Positions 16,427 through 23,041 of a DNA stretch of 62,731 nt are shown piece after piece. Source of the stretch: Candidatus Kaiserbacteria bacterium (GTDB lineage Bacteria > Patescibacteriota > Minisyncoccia > Phycocordibacterales > JABAAK01); contig JAPPJI010000001.1 in the NCBI GenBank assembly GCA_028820405.1, forward strand, positions 1 to 62,731, read 5' to 3'. The notes below the pieces were generated by a model, which saw only the letters and a program-made list of their open reading frames with translations, was not told the origin of the DNA and searched no databases. Within the stretch, counting starts at the first letter, position 1, and every line of letters starts with the position of its first letter. The position numbers were made by a program, and so were the translations under genes.

Positions 16427-16438
16427 GTATTTCTCAAA

Positions 16439-16475
16439 GCCCCTACACACCCAGCGTGTGTAGGGGCTTCTTTGT
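16439..16475. terminator. intrinsic terminator hairpin shared by convergent ORF 16037 and clpB
   Basis: GCCCCTACACAC (16439..16450), loop CCAGC, GTGTGTAGGGGC (16456..16467), then TTCTTTGT. Confidence 0.6.
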
Positions 16476-20049: not shown

Positions 20050-21201
20050 CTATGTCGTTGCGAGCGGTAAACAAGTTTTCATAGCCTGAACAAGTTTTCG
20101 CACCTCTTTTTTTGTTGTTGACGGGAGAAGGCCCATGCGAATTGCCTCGACCCCCTGCACCGAGCACGCACTGCTTGTTGATGTTGAAAAACCGTGCGTA
20201 TCGAGGAGTGTTGCAAGGTACGCATGGTTGGTGTTAGGAAATGTTACATACAGCAGGTGCGGTGCCAGTTTTTTCCAATCAGCGGGACGAACATCTTTCA
20301 GGTATTTTTCAAGACCGAGTACGTAGACATCAGAAAAAGAAGCATCTATCTGCTCCGCGAGGGATTGCCTCAGTGATGAGATGTGTTGTATGAGGTCAGA
20401 TTGGTGCCGGTGTGTCTCTTGCACCGCAGTCGAAAAGCCATAGATGAGGGCAACCGGCGGTGTTCCGGGCCGCATGTCAAAGACACTATGTTCACCCTGG
20501 AGACCGGTGTACCGCTTTGCTTCCTGAAACAAAAGTGCACCGACTCCCTGCGGTCCGAATGTTTTTGTTCCGTCAATCGTTGCAGCGTCAACACGGAGTG
20601 TGTGTGGTGAACAGTTGTGATATGCCGTTCCCTGTGCAGAGTCGGTGTGAACAAAGATGGCAGGTTGTTTTTCCCGACATGCGTCTGCAATGCGGGCAAT
20701 TGGCTGAACAAGACCGTGAAGGCTGTTTACTAACTGCAAAGAAAGGCATACCGTATTTTCACGAACTTCCTTGACAATGTCTTCCGGGGTAAACAGTCTG
20801 CCGCGTGACGGGGTTGCAATCGTTCCCCGGACACCGAGTGTACGAACGTATTCAAGCACTTTGAAAACGGAACTATGCTCGTCAAATCCAATCAGTACGT
20901 GCATGTCAGTAAGTGGTTTACCGTCGCGGAGACCCTGCAGCAGGGCCGTTCGAACGGCGAGCAGATTTGCCTCTGTTGCACCTGAGGTAAAAATAATATC
21001 ACCTGCCTGCATTTGATAGGTGCGGGCAATCATAGTCCGAGACCGCTCGACATAGTCATCAGCAGCTCTTCCGTGATGATGTGCTGAAAGCGGATTTCCG
21101 AGAGATCCTTGCACCTGTTTTCGCAGCACATCACGAACCGCTCGATATGATTTTTTGTGCAGTGGCGTAAATGCCCCGGAGTCAAAGTATCGGTGCTTCA
21201 T
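20050..21201 (-). CDS. cysteine desulfurase / class-V aminotransferase (NifS/IscS-like)
   Basis: Motifs IIFTSGATEANLLAV, HTDSAQG, PLP-lysine context IDGTKTFGPQGVGALLF, and C-terminal STSSACS with the candidate catalytic Cys. Confidence 0.85.
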   Translation of the reverse strand: MKHRYFDSGAFTPLHKKSYRAVRDVLRKQVQGSLGNPLSAHHHGRAADDYVERSRTMIARTYQMQAGDIIFTSGATEANLLAVRTALLQGLRDGKPLTDMHVLIGFDEHSSVFKVLEYVRTLGVRGTIATPSRGRLFTPEDIVKEVRENTVCLSLQLVNSLHGLVQPIARIADACREKQPAIFVHTDSAQGTAYHNCSPHTLRVDAATIDGTKTFGPQGVGALLFQEAKRYTGLQGEHSVFDMRPGTPPVALIYGFSTAVQETHRHQSDLIQHISSLRQSLAEQIDASFSDVYVLGLEKYLKDVRPADWKKLAPHLLYVTFPNTNHAYLATLLDTHGFSTSTSSACSVQGVEAIRMGLLPSTTKKEVRKLVQAMKTCLPLATT

Positions 21202-21262
21202 GAGGGGATTGTAACACGAGGTTGGTGTTGGTGGTGAAACTCAGCATGTTCAAAACTGCACC

Positions 21263-21309
21263 GGATAAAAATAAAAGCCCCTGTACACTTTCGTTTGTGT
21301 ACAGGGGGC
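21263..21309 (-). terminator. strong intrinsic terminator about 60 nt upstream of the cysteine desulfurase start
   Basis: On the minus strand: GCCCCCTGTACAC-AAACGAAA-GTGTACAGGGGC followed by TTTTATTTTTAT. Confidence 0.6.
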
Positions 21310-21377
21310 TTGGAGCCGCTTGCCGTTGTGTAGTATAGCCACGCTTGTTGGTATCTCAACCGTTCGCGTCATGGGTA

Positions 21378-21410
21378 TCAGCGGTGGTTTTCGACCCGGT
21401 GGTGGCACAT
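21378..21410 (-). other. 10-codon mini-ORF MCHHRVENHR with strong SD (leader peptide or chance ORF within an sRNA)
   Basis: On the minus strand: AAAGGAGGATACC-ATG TGC CAC CAC CGG GTC GAA AAC CAC CGC TGA. The SD can pair with the upstream CCUCUU through a GAAA loop. Confidence 0.25.
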
Positions 21411-21456
21411 GGTATCCTCCTTTTCAAGAGGTGAATGTTCATATCAATATGTTTGT

Positions 21457-21485
21457 ATAATAACAGTGATTTGTATATTTGTCAA
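21457..21485 (-). promoter_or_regulatory. near-consensus promoter TTGACA-17-TATTAT driving the leader/mini-ORF transcript
   Basis: The reverse complement of 21480..21485 is TTGACA and of 21457..21462 is TATTAT. Confidence 0.55.
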
Positions 21486-21510
21486 TACTTGTCTCTTTTC
21501 TACCCCTCCA

Positions 21511-21541
21511 TTGACTGTTTCTTGTCCATTTCACGTATAAT
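21511..21541 (+). promoter_or_regulatory. promoter TTGACT-19-TATAAT, 9 nt upstream of infB ATG (leaderless)
   Basis: TTGACT at 21511..21516, TATAAT at 21536..21541, ATG at 21551. There is no SD. Confidence 0.5.
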
Positions 21542-21550
21542 GGCTGGTAT

Positions 21551-23041
21551 ATGCCAGCACGACCACCAATCATTGCCGTTGTTGGACATATTGACCACGG
21601 CAAGTCAACATTGCAGCAGGCGATTCGCAATGCGAATACCGAGCTCAAGGAGGCAGGTGATATCACCCAGCACATTGGGGCCTATGAGCTCCATGCATCG
21701 TACGAAGGGTCTGAACGCCGGGCGACTATCATTGACACCCCGGGACACGAGGCTTTTTTGCATGTCAGAGAGCACGGTCTTGAGATCGCAGATATTGCCC
21801 TGCTCGTTGTCTCATCGGAAGAGGGATGGAAAGAGCAAACACAGGAAACGTATGAGGTGATACAAAAATTGAAAACCCCTTTCATCATCGTTTTTACAAA
21901 AATAGACACTGAAAAAGCGAATATTGAAACAGCAAAACAGAGTGTACTCAAACAAGGCATTCTTCTTGAGCAGCTTGGCGGATCCATTCCGTGGATTGGC
22001 GTCTCCTCAACAACAGGCGAAGGTGTCTCAGACCTCATTGACCTCATTTTCCTCACCACCGACGTGTATGAGATTGTGGAAGACCGAACTGACGGATCTG
22101 TCGGTACCCTCGTTGAAGCCGACATTGATCCAAAAGTTGGTATTACCGGAACCGTCATTGTTCTGCAAGGAAGTCTCACCTCCGATCACTATGTCCGCAT
22201 CGGGTCCAGCACCGCTCCGCTCCGCATCATGACAAACGACCGGGGGAAAAAGGTAACTGATGTTGTTCCGTCAACACCGGTACGTATTGCCGGCTTTGAC
22301 ACGGTCCCCGCTATCGGTGCACCGGTCTTCCGGTATGACAGCAGGAAAGATGCAACCGAAGCGGCAAAGAGTGCAGTATCAAAAAAGCAACAACGAACCG
22401 TTGACACCGGTGAACGCGGCAGAACCATATCTCTCGTCATCCGTTCTGATACTGCGTCGGGTCTCACCTCCATTGAACGGGCAGTTGCAGCCGTTGCAGA
22501 AGAAGGCATCACCTTCTCTATTGTTAAACGTGCAGTCGGTCAGGTGACTGAAGAAGATGTTCGCATTGCAAAGTCACAGGATGGCGGTCAGGTGCTCGGA
22601 TTCCACACGACCGCTGATCAACGGGCAAAACGGCTTGCTGAACGAACAGACACACCGATCCATCTCTTCCCGACAATCTATGAGGTAACGGCATGGGCAA
22701 AAGAGCTGTCACAGGAAAAACGAGGAACATACGAACTACAGAATGTAACCGGCGAGGCATCTATCATCAGAATATTTGAAGAGCAGCCGGCACAGAACAC
22801 CTACATCGTTGGTGCTCAAGTGACTGAAGGGTCTTTCAAAAAGGGGCAAAGCATTGCGATAAAGCGGGGAGAATCAATTGCCGGTCAATTCGTGGTTGAA
22901 TCCCTTGAACAGCGAAACAAAGAGCAGGATAGCGTGTCGGGAGAAAAGCAGCAATTTGCAATGCGTATCAAAGGAGAGGGATCCGTTGCACTGCAAGACA
23001 CTGCTGTTGCACTTCCCGACCTCACAGACAAGTCATCATGA
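21551..23041 (+). CDS. infB: translation initiation factor IF-2 (short form, no N-terminal extension)
   Basis: Motifs IIAVVGHIDHGKSTL, DTPGHEAF and TKID, followed by the beta-barrel and C-terminal domains. Confidence 0.92.
   Translation: MPARPPIIAVVGHIDHGKSTLQQAIRNANTELKEAGDITQHIGAYELHASYEGSERRATIIDTPGHEAFLHVREHGLEIADIALLVVSSEEGWKEQTQETYEVIQKLKTPFIIVFTKIDTEKANIETAKQSVLKQGILLEQLGGSIPWIGVSSTTGEGVSDLIDLIFLTTDVYEIVEDRTDGSVGTLVEADIDPKVGITGTVIVLQGSLTSDHYVRIGSSTAPLRIMTNDRGKKVTDVVPSTPVRIAGFDTVPAIGAPVFRYDSRKDATEAAKSAVSKKQQRTVDTGERGRTISLVIRSDTASGLTSIERAVAAVAEEGITFSIVKRAVGQVTEEDVRIAKSQDGGQVLGFHTTADQRAKRLAERTDTPIHLFPTIYEVTAWAKELSQEKRGTYELQNVTGEASIIRIFEEQPAQNTYIVGAQVTEGSFKKGQSIAIKRGESIAGQFVVESLEQRNKEQDSVSGEKQQFAMRIKGEGSVALQDTAVALPDLTDKSS

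What the first reader, a model, noticed from the sequence alone, without database searches (positions are those of the whole stretch)
21263..21485. Promoter + SD-sequestering hairpin + 10-codon Cys/His-rich mini-ORF + intrinsic terminator upstream of the cysteine desulfurase
Read on the minus strand, in order:
- TTGACA-17-TATTAT (21485..21457).
- About 40 nt later, CCUCUU-GAAA-AGGAGG, a 6-bp stem with a GNRA-like loop that contains the SD.
- ATG TGC CAC CAC CGG GTC GAA AAC CAC CGC TGA (21410..21378).
- A 68-nt spacer.
- A GC-rich hairpin plus UUUUAUUUUUAU (21309..21263).
- About 60 nt further on, the desulfurase ATG (21201).

This is the architecture of a leader-peptide or riboswitch attenuator, or of an independent sRNA of about 185 nt. 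I do not recognise it as any known leader. Three His codons and one Cys codon in ten codons, upstream of a cysteine-consuming enzyme, is suggestive but weak.
Basis: partly seen in the sequence, partly recalled or inferred. Interest (0 to 1): 0.62.

Follow-up and report, generated by a model that had tools for sequence, protein, structure and literature searches.

The report
Orphan small RNA unit beside desulfurase
Between two housekeeping genes of an ultra-small (Kaiserbacteria-type) bacterium lies a self-contained mini-gene (strong promoter, 10-codon reading frame, conserved RNA hairpin, terminator) that most likely makes a small structured RNA. It is not a control switch for the neighbouring cysteine desulfurase, and it is known from only two genomes.

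Summary
The promoter is the only one in the 636-kb genome that scores at least 11/12 and also has a TG extension.

The element does not appear to be a leader of the desulfurase:
- That gene has its own extended -10 (TGTTACAAT) 6 nt before a leaderless ATG. The same arrangement occurs in relatives that lack the element.
- 11 related genomes or contigs lack the element at this site. Only the sister lineage (contig L031) has it.
- No antiterminator pairing exists. The terminator survives every simulated ribosome position.

The unit is under selection. Between the window and L031, third codon positions of the flanking gene are 45% identical. A 69-nt imperfect hairpin (21406..21338) is 84-88% identical, with two compensatory pair changes. 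The promoter, SD, ATG, ORF length and terminator are also kept.

The peptide itself is poorly conserved (MCHHRVENHR against MRHQAVEDHR). The Cys is lost, and the changes are not concentrated at third positions.

The promoter and 5'UTR are paralogous to those of SD-led accessory genes elsewhere in the genome.

Rfam, a custom covariance model on 400 genomes of the order, and pattern scans found no other homologue.

Best reading: a lineage-specific, independently transcribed structured sRNA, possibly with a translated mini-ORF. Its function is unknown. No transcript data could be obtained.

The parts
21480..21485 (-). -35 hexamer TTGACA, in the context TATTGACAAATAT and preceded by an A-rich stretch (21486..21502)
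   Evidence: It is invariant in L031. The same TATTGACAAATAT context occurs at the paralogous promoter on contig C3.
21457..21465 (-). Extended -10, TGTTATTAT. The probable transcription start near 21450 is inferred, not shown.
   Evidence: L031 has TGTTATTGT at the same spacing. This is the only promoter in the genome that scores at least 11/12 and has TG.
21416..21431 (-). Anti-SD/SD hairpin CCUCUU-GAAA-AGGAGG; the SD is AAGGAGG at 21422..21416
   Evidence: A UUCACC(U/C) anti-SD-like motif upstream of an SD recurs in L031 and in the leaders of SD-led accessory genes at C3:1479, C23:30333 and C23:30709.
21378..21410 (-). 10-codon mini-ORF MCHHRVENHR plus TGA
   Evidence: L031 has the same length and stop, MRHQAVEDHR. 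All 4 changed codons are non-synonymous, and 7 of 9 third positions are identical (read).
21338..21406 (-). Conserved 69-nt imperfect hairpin (P1 to P5, apical loop ACCC). Its 5' arm is codons 2-10 and the stop codon of the mini-ORF.
   Evidence: RNAalifold consensus: 19 pairs, 100% paired in both sequences, 2 compensatory changes and one G-U to G-C change. It is 84% identical overall and 88% in the distal part. Test of the structure predicted from this genome alone: p about 0.006.
21311..21337 (-). Variable spacer between the hairpin and the terminator
   Evidence: 49% identity with 8 gapped columns, and a different length in L031.
21263..21310 (-). Intrinsic terminator: stem 21307..21278, loop AAACGAAA, then UUUUAUUUUUAU
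   Evidence: L031 keeps it with one compensatory change (U-A to C-G) and one C-G to U-G change. The stem resembles terminators at C3:1888 and window 16437.
21199..21216 (-). NOT part of the element: the desulfurase's own extended -10 (TGTTACAAT, 21216..21208), then 6 nt, then a leaderless ATG (21201)
   Evidence: The same layout occurs in L031, L032, L033, L041 and L034, and with variations in the genus representatives.
21511..21553 (+). NOT part of the element: the divergent infB promoter (TTGACT 21511..21516, 19 nt, TATAAT 21536..21541) and the infB ATG at 21551
   Evidence: Pfam identifies IF-2. The two promoters stand back to back.

Best explanation
The stretch 21485..21263 (minus strand) is a self-contained transcription unit restricted to one small lineage. 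It is not the leader of the desulfurase.

Proposed sequence of events:
1. A very strong sigma-70-type promoter starts an RNA of about 175-190 nt. This is inferred.
2. The RNA ends at a conserved intrinsic terminator. The terminator also shields the desulfurase's own leaderless promoter, which lies just downstream.
3. The selected part of the RNA is a 69-nt imperfect hairpin (21406..21338). Its sequence and pairing are both conserved.
4. The 5' part (anti-SD/SD hairpin, SD, ATG) is the standard leader of this genome's SD-led accessory genes. Ribosomes therefore probably load and read the 10-codon ORF, which runs up the 5' arm of the hairpin and stops near its tip.

I take the RNA to be the functional product: a structured sRNA acting in trans, or an RNA that binds a protein. 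Translation of the mini-ORF would then be either incidental or a way to open or destabilise the hairpin, as in dual-function sRNAs.

Shown here:
- the anatomy;
- conservation above neutral, and covariation;
- absence from the outgroups;
- the desulfurase's independent promoter;
- the lack of any antiterminator.

Inferred only: that the unit is transcribed, that the mini-ORF is translated, and the mode of action.
For: - Promoter quality: 11/12 plus TG, unique in the genome.
- Terminator.
- Homologous unit at the same site in L031.
- (window, L031) are sister lineages with bootstrap 100, and L032, which lacks the unit, is the outgroup.
- Third-codon identity is 45%. The hairpin is 84-88% identical and the promoter region 74%. 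The SD-ATG spacer, the post-hairpin spacer and the post-terminator region are 18-49% identical.
- Hairpin: 19 of 19 pairs kept, 2 compensatory changes, one G-U to G-C change.
- Structure predicted from the window alone and tested on the L031 substitutions: p about 0.006.
- Compensatory change in the terminator.
- No conserved ORF of 20 aa or more on either strand.
- Substitutions show no third-position bias in the mini-ORF.
- The desulfurase's own extended -10 and leaderless ATG are conserved with or without the element.
- The promoter, 5'UTR and terminator are paralogous to those of an SD-led gene at C3:1479-1877. The leader type is shared with the C23 accessory genes.
Against: - No transcript data.
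- Only two sequences, so covariation rests on 2-3 events. The tool's own shuffle control has no power with two rows.
- In the full-length fold of the window RNA alone, the minimum-energy structure does not contain the consensus hairpin. It does in the 83-nt context and in L031.
- No target or partner was identified. A crude duplex scan showed the neighbouring genes are not outliers.
- The conserved SD, ATG and ORF length fit a coding or translation-dependent role equally well.
Confidence: 0.5

Rival explanations
1. A micro-protein gene. The 10-residue peptide (MCHHRVENHR / MRHQAVEDHR) is the product, and the hairpin is only its 3' part or a stabiliser. Both peptides would have His at position 3 of the mature N-terminus, the X-X-His pattern of Cu/Ni-binding ATCUN motifs. 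That resemblance is from my own knowledge and was not tested.
For: - The SD and ATG are conserved while the spacer between them is not (5 against 7 nt, unrelated sequence).
- ORF length and stop codon are identical, and there is no indel in the variable codons 4-5.
- The leader is the type used by real SD-led protein genes in this genome.
- His3, Val6, Glu7, His9 and Arg10 are kept.
Against: - 4 of 9 residues after the Met differ, including Cys to Arg and Arg to Ala.
- All codon changes are non-synonymous.
- 7 of 9 third positions are identical, against a 45% background. That is the pattern of RNA-level constraint, not peptide-level constraint.
- The strongest conservation continues for 40 nt past the stop codon.
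- Functional free 10-mers made directly by ribosomes are rare (own knowledge).
Confidence: 0.13
2. One reading: a cis-acting leader-peptide or riboswitch attenuator that sets read-through from the strong promoter into the cysteine desulfurase.
For: - The order promoter, SD, short ORF, hairpin, terminator, gene is that of classical attenuators.
- The unit points at the desulfurase and ends 61 nt before it.
Against: - The desulfurase has its own extended -10 6 nt before a leaderless ATG, with no SD for internal initiation. Relatives without the element have the same arrangement.
- The element is absent from 11 related loci.
- No Rfam hit even at E <= 10.
- The segment next to the terminator is unconserved.
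- Blocking the ORF region never disrupts the terminator in either sequence.
- The Cys codon is not conserved, there is no run of regulatory codons, and His drops from 3 to 2.
Confidence: 0.06
3. A decaying relic of an SD-led accessory gene cassette, like the one at C3:1400-1925. The promoter, leader, start codon and terminator survive and the coding body is lost, leaving no present function.
For: - Both the promoter/5'UTR and the terminator resemble those flanking the 132-aa ORF on C3: 73-76% over 59-75 nt, E = 1e-4 to 4e-10.
- The ORF is only 10 codons.
- The unit is a lineage-specific insertion.
Against: - A relic would have decayed. Neutral sites between the two carriers are saturated at 45% third-position identity, and the spacers inside the unit are unalignable.
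- Despite that, the core is 84-88% identical with compensatory changes, and the promoter hexamers are intact.
- The body has no similarity to the C3 ORF.
Confidence: 0.08
4. A DNA-level element: the 69-bp imperfect palindrome is a protein-binding or recombination site, for example a landing site for mobile DNA between two promoters, and not an RNA structure.
For: - The locus is variable. The sister clade (L033, L041) carries a different GC-rich insert at the same position.
- The stems are conserved mostly at the sequence level.
Against: - One pair is G-U in the window. On the other strand, or in duplex DNA, that would be a C-A mismatch.
- The palindrome sits precisely between a conserved promoter and a terminator in the same orientation.
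- No flanking repeats or recombinase gene were seen.
Confidence: 0.04

Closest known systems
Dual-function (coding) bacterial sRNAs, e.g. SgrS/SgrT, RNAIII/delta-haemolysin, SR1/SR1P
   Same: A free-standing unit with its own promoter and intrinsic terminator. It combines a short SD-led ORF with a conserved structured RNA part.
   Different: - The ORF is far shorter (10 codons) and its peptide is poorly conserved.
- No base-pairing seed or target was found.
- No sequence or Rfam relationship.
- The unit is known from only two uncultured genomes.
Ribosome-mediated transcription attenuators (trpL, hisL, pheL, pyrL leaders)
   Same: The order promoter, SD, short ORF, hairpin overlapping the ORF, intrinsic terminator.
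   Different: - No conserved regulatory codons.
- No antiterminator alternative.
- A separate conserved promoter lies between the terminator and the downstream gene.
- The downstream gene is leaderless.
Translation-attenuation leaders of inducible resistance genes (ermC, cat-86, cmlA leaders)
   Same: A leader ORF of 8-19 codons whose coding sequence forms the 5' arm of a stable hairpin.
   Different: In those systems the 3' arm hides the SD of the next gene. Here the 3' arm contains no SD followed by a start codon, and a terminator follows instead of a gene.
This genome's own SD-led accessory gene cassettes (C3:1400-1925, C23:30333 and C23:30709)
   Same: - Homologous TATTGACAAATAT promoter context.
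- The UUCACC(U/C) anti-SD motif, followed by an SD and a start codon at the same distance.
- A GCCCCUG...CAGGGGC terminator type.
   Different: Those cassettes carry ORFs of 83-132 aa. This unit carries 10 codons and a conserved hairpin unrelated to them.

Membership tests
Leader-peptide transcription attenuator | Short translated leader ORF with an SD upstream of the terminator | tested here: met
   SD AAGGAGG, 5 nt, then ATG, 10 codons. The layout is conserved in L031. Translation itself was not shown.
Leader-peptide transcription attenuator | Conserved (usually tandem) codons for the sensed amino acid | tested here: not met
   Cys changes to Arg. His codons drop from 3 to 2 and form no run in L031.
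Leader-peptide transcription attenuator | Antiterminator pairing that competes with the terminator when the ribosome stalls | tested here: not met
   Constrained folds with the ribosome on the AUG, at the stop, or over the whole ORF all keep the terminator, in both sequences. The segment next to the terminator is unconserved.
Leader-peptide transcription attenuator | The regulated gene depends on read-through, with no promoter of its own after the terminator | tested here: not met
   TGTTACAAT lies 6 nt before a leaderless ATG, and is conserved in relatives without the element. This is promoter-sequence evidence only.
Riboswitch (any Rfam family) | Match to a described aptamer model | tested here: not met
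   cmscan at gathering scores on the whole window, and at E <= 10 on 21100..21650, gave only a chance hit to a plant-virus element on the opposite strand.
Riboswitch (any Rfam family) | Wide conservation upstream of the same gene class | tested here: not met
   Absent upstream of the orthologous desulfurase in G001-G005, G007, G009, L032, L033, L034 and L041. The covariance model found nothing in 400 genomes of the order.
Independent bacterial sRNA gene | Own promoter and own intrinsic terminator bounding a non-coding stretch of 50-300 nt | tested here: met
   Both are conserved in L031, and the terminator has a compensatory change.
Independent bacterial sRNA gene | Conservation above the neutral rate, with structure-preserving substitutions | tested here: met
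   84-88% identity against 45% at third codon positions. Two compensatory pairs. p about 0.006. Only two sequences.
Independent bacterial sRNA gene | A discrete transcript is detected | not testable with these tools
erm/cat-type translation attenuator | The 3' arm of the leader hairpin sequesters the RBS of the downstream gene | tested here: not met
   The 3' arm (21370..21338) has no SD followed by a start codon, and no conserved ORF follows.
6S RNA / SRP RNA (housekeeping RNAs of similar size) | Match to the family model and presence across relatives | tested here: not met
   RF00013, RF00169 and RF01854 give no hit in the genome. The element is absent from relatives. The lineage also lacks the Ffh M domain, as already reported for Parcubacteria (PMC4508563).

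The most novel reading that the evidence does not exclude
The unit could be a ribosome-gated RNA. Translation of the 10-codon ORF, which is driven by a leader type otherwise reserved for accessory protein genes, would unwind a sequence-conserved hairpin. The activity or stability of the RNA would then report the cell's translational status. Alternatively, the product could be a decapeptide with an N-terminal X-X-His metal-binding site encoded beside a cysteine desulfurase. Either would be a new kind of mini-gene in the very small genomes of CPR bacteria.
Probability: 0.12. Interest if true: 0.55.

Novelty: new member of a known kind. Interest (0 to 1): 0.3.

Why it matters
Non-coding RNAs in CPR/Patescibacteria are little studied, to my knowledge, because the organisms are uncultured and Rfam models rarely match. 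This case shows that a 0.6-Mb genome, otherwise dominated by leaderless housekeeping genes, has gained and kept a small RNA unit built from the expression signals of its accessory genes.

The practical consequence is for annotation. The desulfurase should not be annotated as attenuator-controlled, and the Cys/His link should be dropped.

The value is limited. There are only two instances, no expression data and no function.

Tried and rejected
- **Rfam.** Gathering scores on the whole window, and E <= 10 on the locus, gave nothing.
- **BLASTN of the element against 60 relatives.** It found only itself and a paralogous promoter/leader on contig C3.
- **Pattern scans for the conserved core.**
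  - JGI metagenome contigs gave 2 hits, both inside unrelated coding genes.
  - GTDB genome contigs gave 0 hits, then 26 hits, all in unrelated GC-rich taxa.
  - IMG/VR gave 0 hits for the core. The 45 hits for a loose 5'UTR pattern had no core hairpin.
- **Covariance model R1.** On 400 genomes of the order it gave only E about 0.3 noise. On all fetched loci it matched only L031.
- **Protein searches for close relatives.** Searches with the desulfurase and with infB found only four or five informative contigs.
- **Longer or recoded ORFs.**
  - The other two sense frames, the antisense frames and TGA read-through were all examined.
  - Each is broken by a 1-nt indel, or lacks a start codon in one of the two sequences.
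  - None shows a third-position bias.
- **Relic of the C3 132-aa gene.** The body shows no similarity to it. That ORF has no Pfam or PHROG family.
- **Relic of the DUF378-like gene (my reading of its sequence)** that precedes the desulfurase in G002-G004. I saw no similarity by eye; this was not tested by alignment.
- **Target search by duplex folding against 987 gene starts.** It was uninformative, and the neighbours are not outliers.
- **6S, SRP RNA, hammerhead, K-turn/K-loop and tRNA-like readings.** All were rejected. The models do not match, and the compensatory pair 21375/21370 contradicts the K-loop register.

Full report
**Setting**

The window is contig C22 of a 636-kb, 27-contig genome. 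Close protein relatives are labelled Candidatus Kaiserbacteria, within Parcubacteria/CPR.

The finding lies in the 349-nt gap 21202..21550. On one side is infB (+ strand, ATG 21551; Pfam GTP_EFTU and IF-2). On the other is a class-V aminotransferase / cysteine-desulfurase-type gene (minus strand, ATG 21201; PF00266).

**Observation**

- TTGACA (21485..21480), 17 nt, TATTAT (21462..21457), with TG at 21465..21464. The score is 11/12.
- The hairpin CCUCUU-GAAA-AGGAGG (21431..21416), which holds the SD.
- ATG at 21410 and TGA ending at 21378 (MCHHRVENHR).
- A 68-nt spacer.
- An 11-pair terminator stem (21307..21278) followed by a U-tract.
- The desulfurase ATG 61 nt further on.

Genome-wide, 18 sites reach 11/12, against 3-15 in block shuffles. 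This is the only one that also has the TG extension. Folding of the 190-nt RNA gives z = -2.8.

**It is not the desulfurase's leader**

Directly before the desulfurase ATG lies TGTTACAAT (21216..21208), then six bases, then the ATG, with no SD. That is an extended -10 promoter driving a leaderless mRNA.

The same layout is found in every relative I read:
- L031: GTGTTACAATCCCACCATG.
- L032: GTGCTACAATCCATGCATG.
- L033 and L041: TGCTACAATCCGCATATA(CA)TG.
- L034: TGTGATATCATCATAGGTATG.
- The genus representatives have equivalents.

The gene therefore has its own conserved start signals downstream of the terminator. A read-through transcript would present an internal AUG without an SD.

**Distribution**

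Same-genus GTDB representatives fall into two groups:
- G001 and G005 have infB and the desulfurase back to back, with a gap of only about 80-110 nt. So do G007 and G009 of the same family.
- G002-G004 have a small membrane-protein gene upstream instead.

Among the closest metagenomic relatives:
- L032 (82% desulfurase identity) has a 78-nt gap.
- L034 and L035 (67%) have 62 nt.
- L033 and L041 (69-71%) carry a different, GC-rich insert.

Only L031 (82%, a Logan contig) has a 340-nt gap with a homologous unit.

A maximum-likelihood tree of the desulfurase plus the infB N-terminus (499 columns) places the window and L031 as sisters with bootstrap 100. L032 falls outside them. The simplest history is one gain in their common ancestor, followed by vertical inheritance.

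No further copy was found by any of these:
- BLASTN in 60 relatives.
- A covariance model in 400 genomes of the order.
- Pattern scans of JGI metagenomes, GTDB genomes and IMG/VR. All hits were chance matches.

**Selection**

Between the window and L031, the desulfurase is 82% identical in protein but only 45% identical at third codon positions. Neutral sites are therefore close to saturation.

Identity inside the unit is strongly mosaic:

| Segment | Identity |
|---|---|
| Promoter region | 74% (both hexamers and the TG essentially intact) |
| Leader | 68% |
| SD-ATG spacer | 20% (5 against 7 nt) |
| Mini-ORF | 82% |
| Hairpin 21406..21338 | 84% (88% in its distal part) |
| Spacer after the hairpin | 49%, with indels |
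| Terminator | Conserved stem and loop |
| Post-terminator stretch | 18% |

Such a mosaic speaks for long divergence with purifying selection on particular parts. It does not fit recent transfer or a decaying relic.

**RNA structure**

RNAalifold gives one long imperfect hairpin, built as follows:
- P1: GCCACC pairs with G(C)GUGGC.
- P2: GUC pairs with GA(U/C).
- P3: (A/G)ACC pairs with GGU(U/C).
- P4: CGCU pairs with A(C)GCG.
- P5: A(U/C) pairs with (A/G)U.
- The apical loop is ACCC.

All 19 pairs are standard in both sequences. Two pairs changed on both sides (A-U to G-C, and U-A to C-G), and one changed from G-U to G-C. Shifting the partners by 1-3 columns drops pairing to 21-34%.

To avoid circularity, I took the minimum-energy structure of the window's 83-nt segment alone. 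I then asked how often 10 random substitutions would keep as many pairs and produce two compensations. The answer was 0.6%.

The terminator also shows one compensatory change and one wobble change.

With only two sequences this is suggestive, not proof. In the full-length fold of the window RNA alone, the consensus hairpin is not the minimum-energy structure.

**Coding or not**

The mini-ORF is 10 codons in both sequences, with the same stop: MCHHRVENHR against MRHQAVEDHR.
- Four codons differ, and all four changes are non-synonymous.
- Seven of nine third positions are identical, against a background of 45%.
- Conservation runs on for 40 nt past the stop codon.

This is the signature of RNA-level constraint, not peptide-level constraint. 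The Cys and one His are not conserved, so the suggested link to cysteine or histidine falls.

The other frames, the antisense frames and TGA read-through are interrupted by a 1-nt indel, or lack a start codon in one of the two sequences.

Even so, the SD and the ATG are kept while the bases between them are not. The leader is also of a type used by real protein genes. Ribosome loading at 21410 is therefore likely to matter.

**Origin of the expression signals**

The promoter context (TATTGACAAATAT), the leader (GAACATTCACC, then the SD) and the position of the start codon match contig C3:1400-1481. The match is 73-76% identity, with E = 1e-4 for the window and 4e-10 for L031. There they drive a 132-aa orphan ORF next to a SocA/Panacea-type gene. 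The C3 terminator also resembles this one.

Two further SD-led small accessory genes, on C23, have the same kind of promoter. The 'SD-sequestering hairpin' is therefore a shared trait of this genome's accessory-gene leaders and not a special regulatory device of this locus.

**Attenuation tested directly**

I folded both RNAs with the ribosome footprint blocked on the AUG, at the stop codon, and over the whole ORF. In every case the terminator hairpin stayed in the minimum-energy structure. The only segment that could hold an antiterminator is unconserved in both sequence and length.

**Other readings excluded**

- There is no 6S or SRP RNA match in the genome.
- Twelve relatives also show no SRP RNA (either type) and no Ffh M domain. 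This is already published for Parcubacteria (PMC4508563).
- The hairpin has none of the SRP helix-8 motifs.
- A crude duplex scan against 987 gene starts gave no special affinity for the neighbouring genes.

**Conclusion**

The attenuator interpretation is not supported.

The best reading (about 0.5) is an independent, lineage-specific small transcription unit. Its selected product would be a structured RNA carrying a probably translated 10-codon ORF. It was assembled from accessory-gene expression signals and inserted between two leaderless housekeeping promoters.

The rivals are:
- a functional decapeptide (0.13);
- a relic cassette (0.08);
- a cis attenuator (0.06);
- a DNA-level site (0.04).

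Noticed in passing
whole genome G000 and 12 relatives (same genus, family and order): No SRP RNA (RF00169, RF01854) and no Ffh M domain (PF02978) in any of the 13 genomes, several of them single-contig. The controls were positive. This is already reported for Parcubacteria (Nelson and Stegen 2015, PMC4508563). 6S RNA (RF00013) is also undetectable in G000.
   Followed up: yes
L033:2770-2990 and L041:2345-2470 (minus strand): The sister clade (69-71% protein identity) carries a different, GC-rich insert of 150-250 nt at the same position, between the infB and desulfurase promoters. Its first 40 nt or so are shared between the two contigs. This intergenic site seems to accept insertions repeatedly.
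   Followed up: no
genome contig C3:477-1925 (locus L002): A SocA/Panacea-domain gene (C3:895-1344, minus strand; PF13274, E = 4e-22) with a 131-aa partner. It lies divergent from an orphan 132-aa ORF (C3:1479-1877) that shares its promoter, leader and terminator type with the element studied here. This looks like an accessory or toxin-antitoxin-like islet next to a P-type-ATPase-sized gene.
   Followed up: partly
window 21416-21440; C3:1450-1475; C23:30360-30400 and C23:30745-30780: SD-led accessory genes of this genome share a UUCACC(U/C) stretch 5-10 nt upstream of the SD. It resembles the 3' end of 16S rRNA and can pair with the SD. It may be a common translation-damping or stabilising leader for the non-leaderless gene class.
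   Followed up: partly
window 16437-16469, 21275-21310; C3:1888-1920: Intrinsic terminators at unrelated loci share the stem core AAGCCCCU(G/A)(U/C)ACAC...GUGU(A/G)(C)AGGGGCUU. Whether it reflects a dispersed element or a preferred terminator design is open.
   Followed up: partly
L004-L006 (genomes G002-G004), upstream of the desulfurase: In three same-genus species, the gene upstream of the desulfurase is a co-directional membrane protein of about 70 aa (YKIAK..IGGLNWGLVG, DUF378-like by eye) in place of infB. Synteny around the desulfurase is therefore not fixed within the genus.
   Followed up: no
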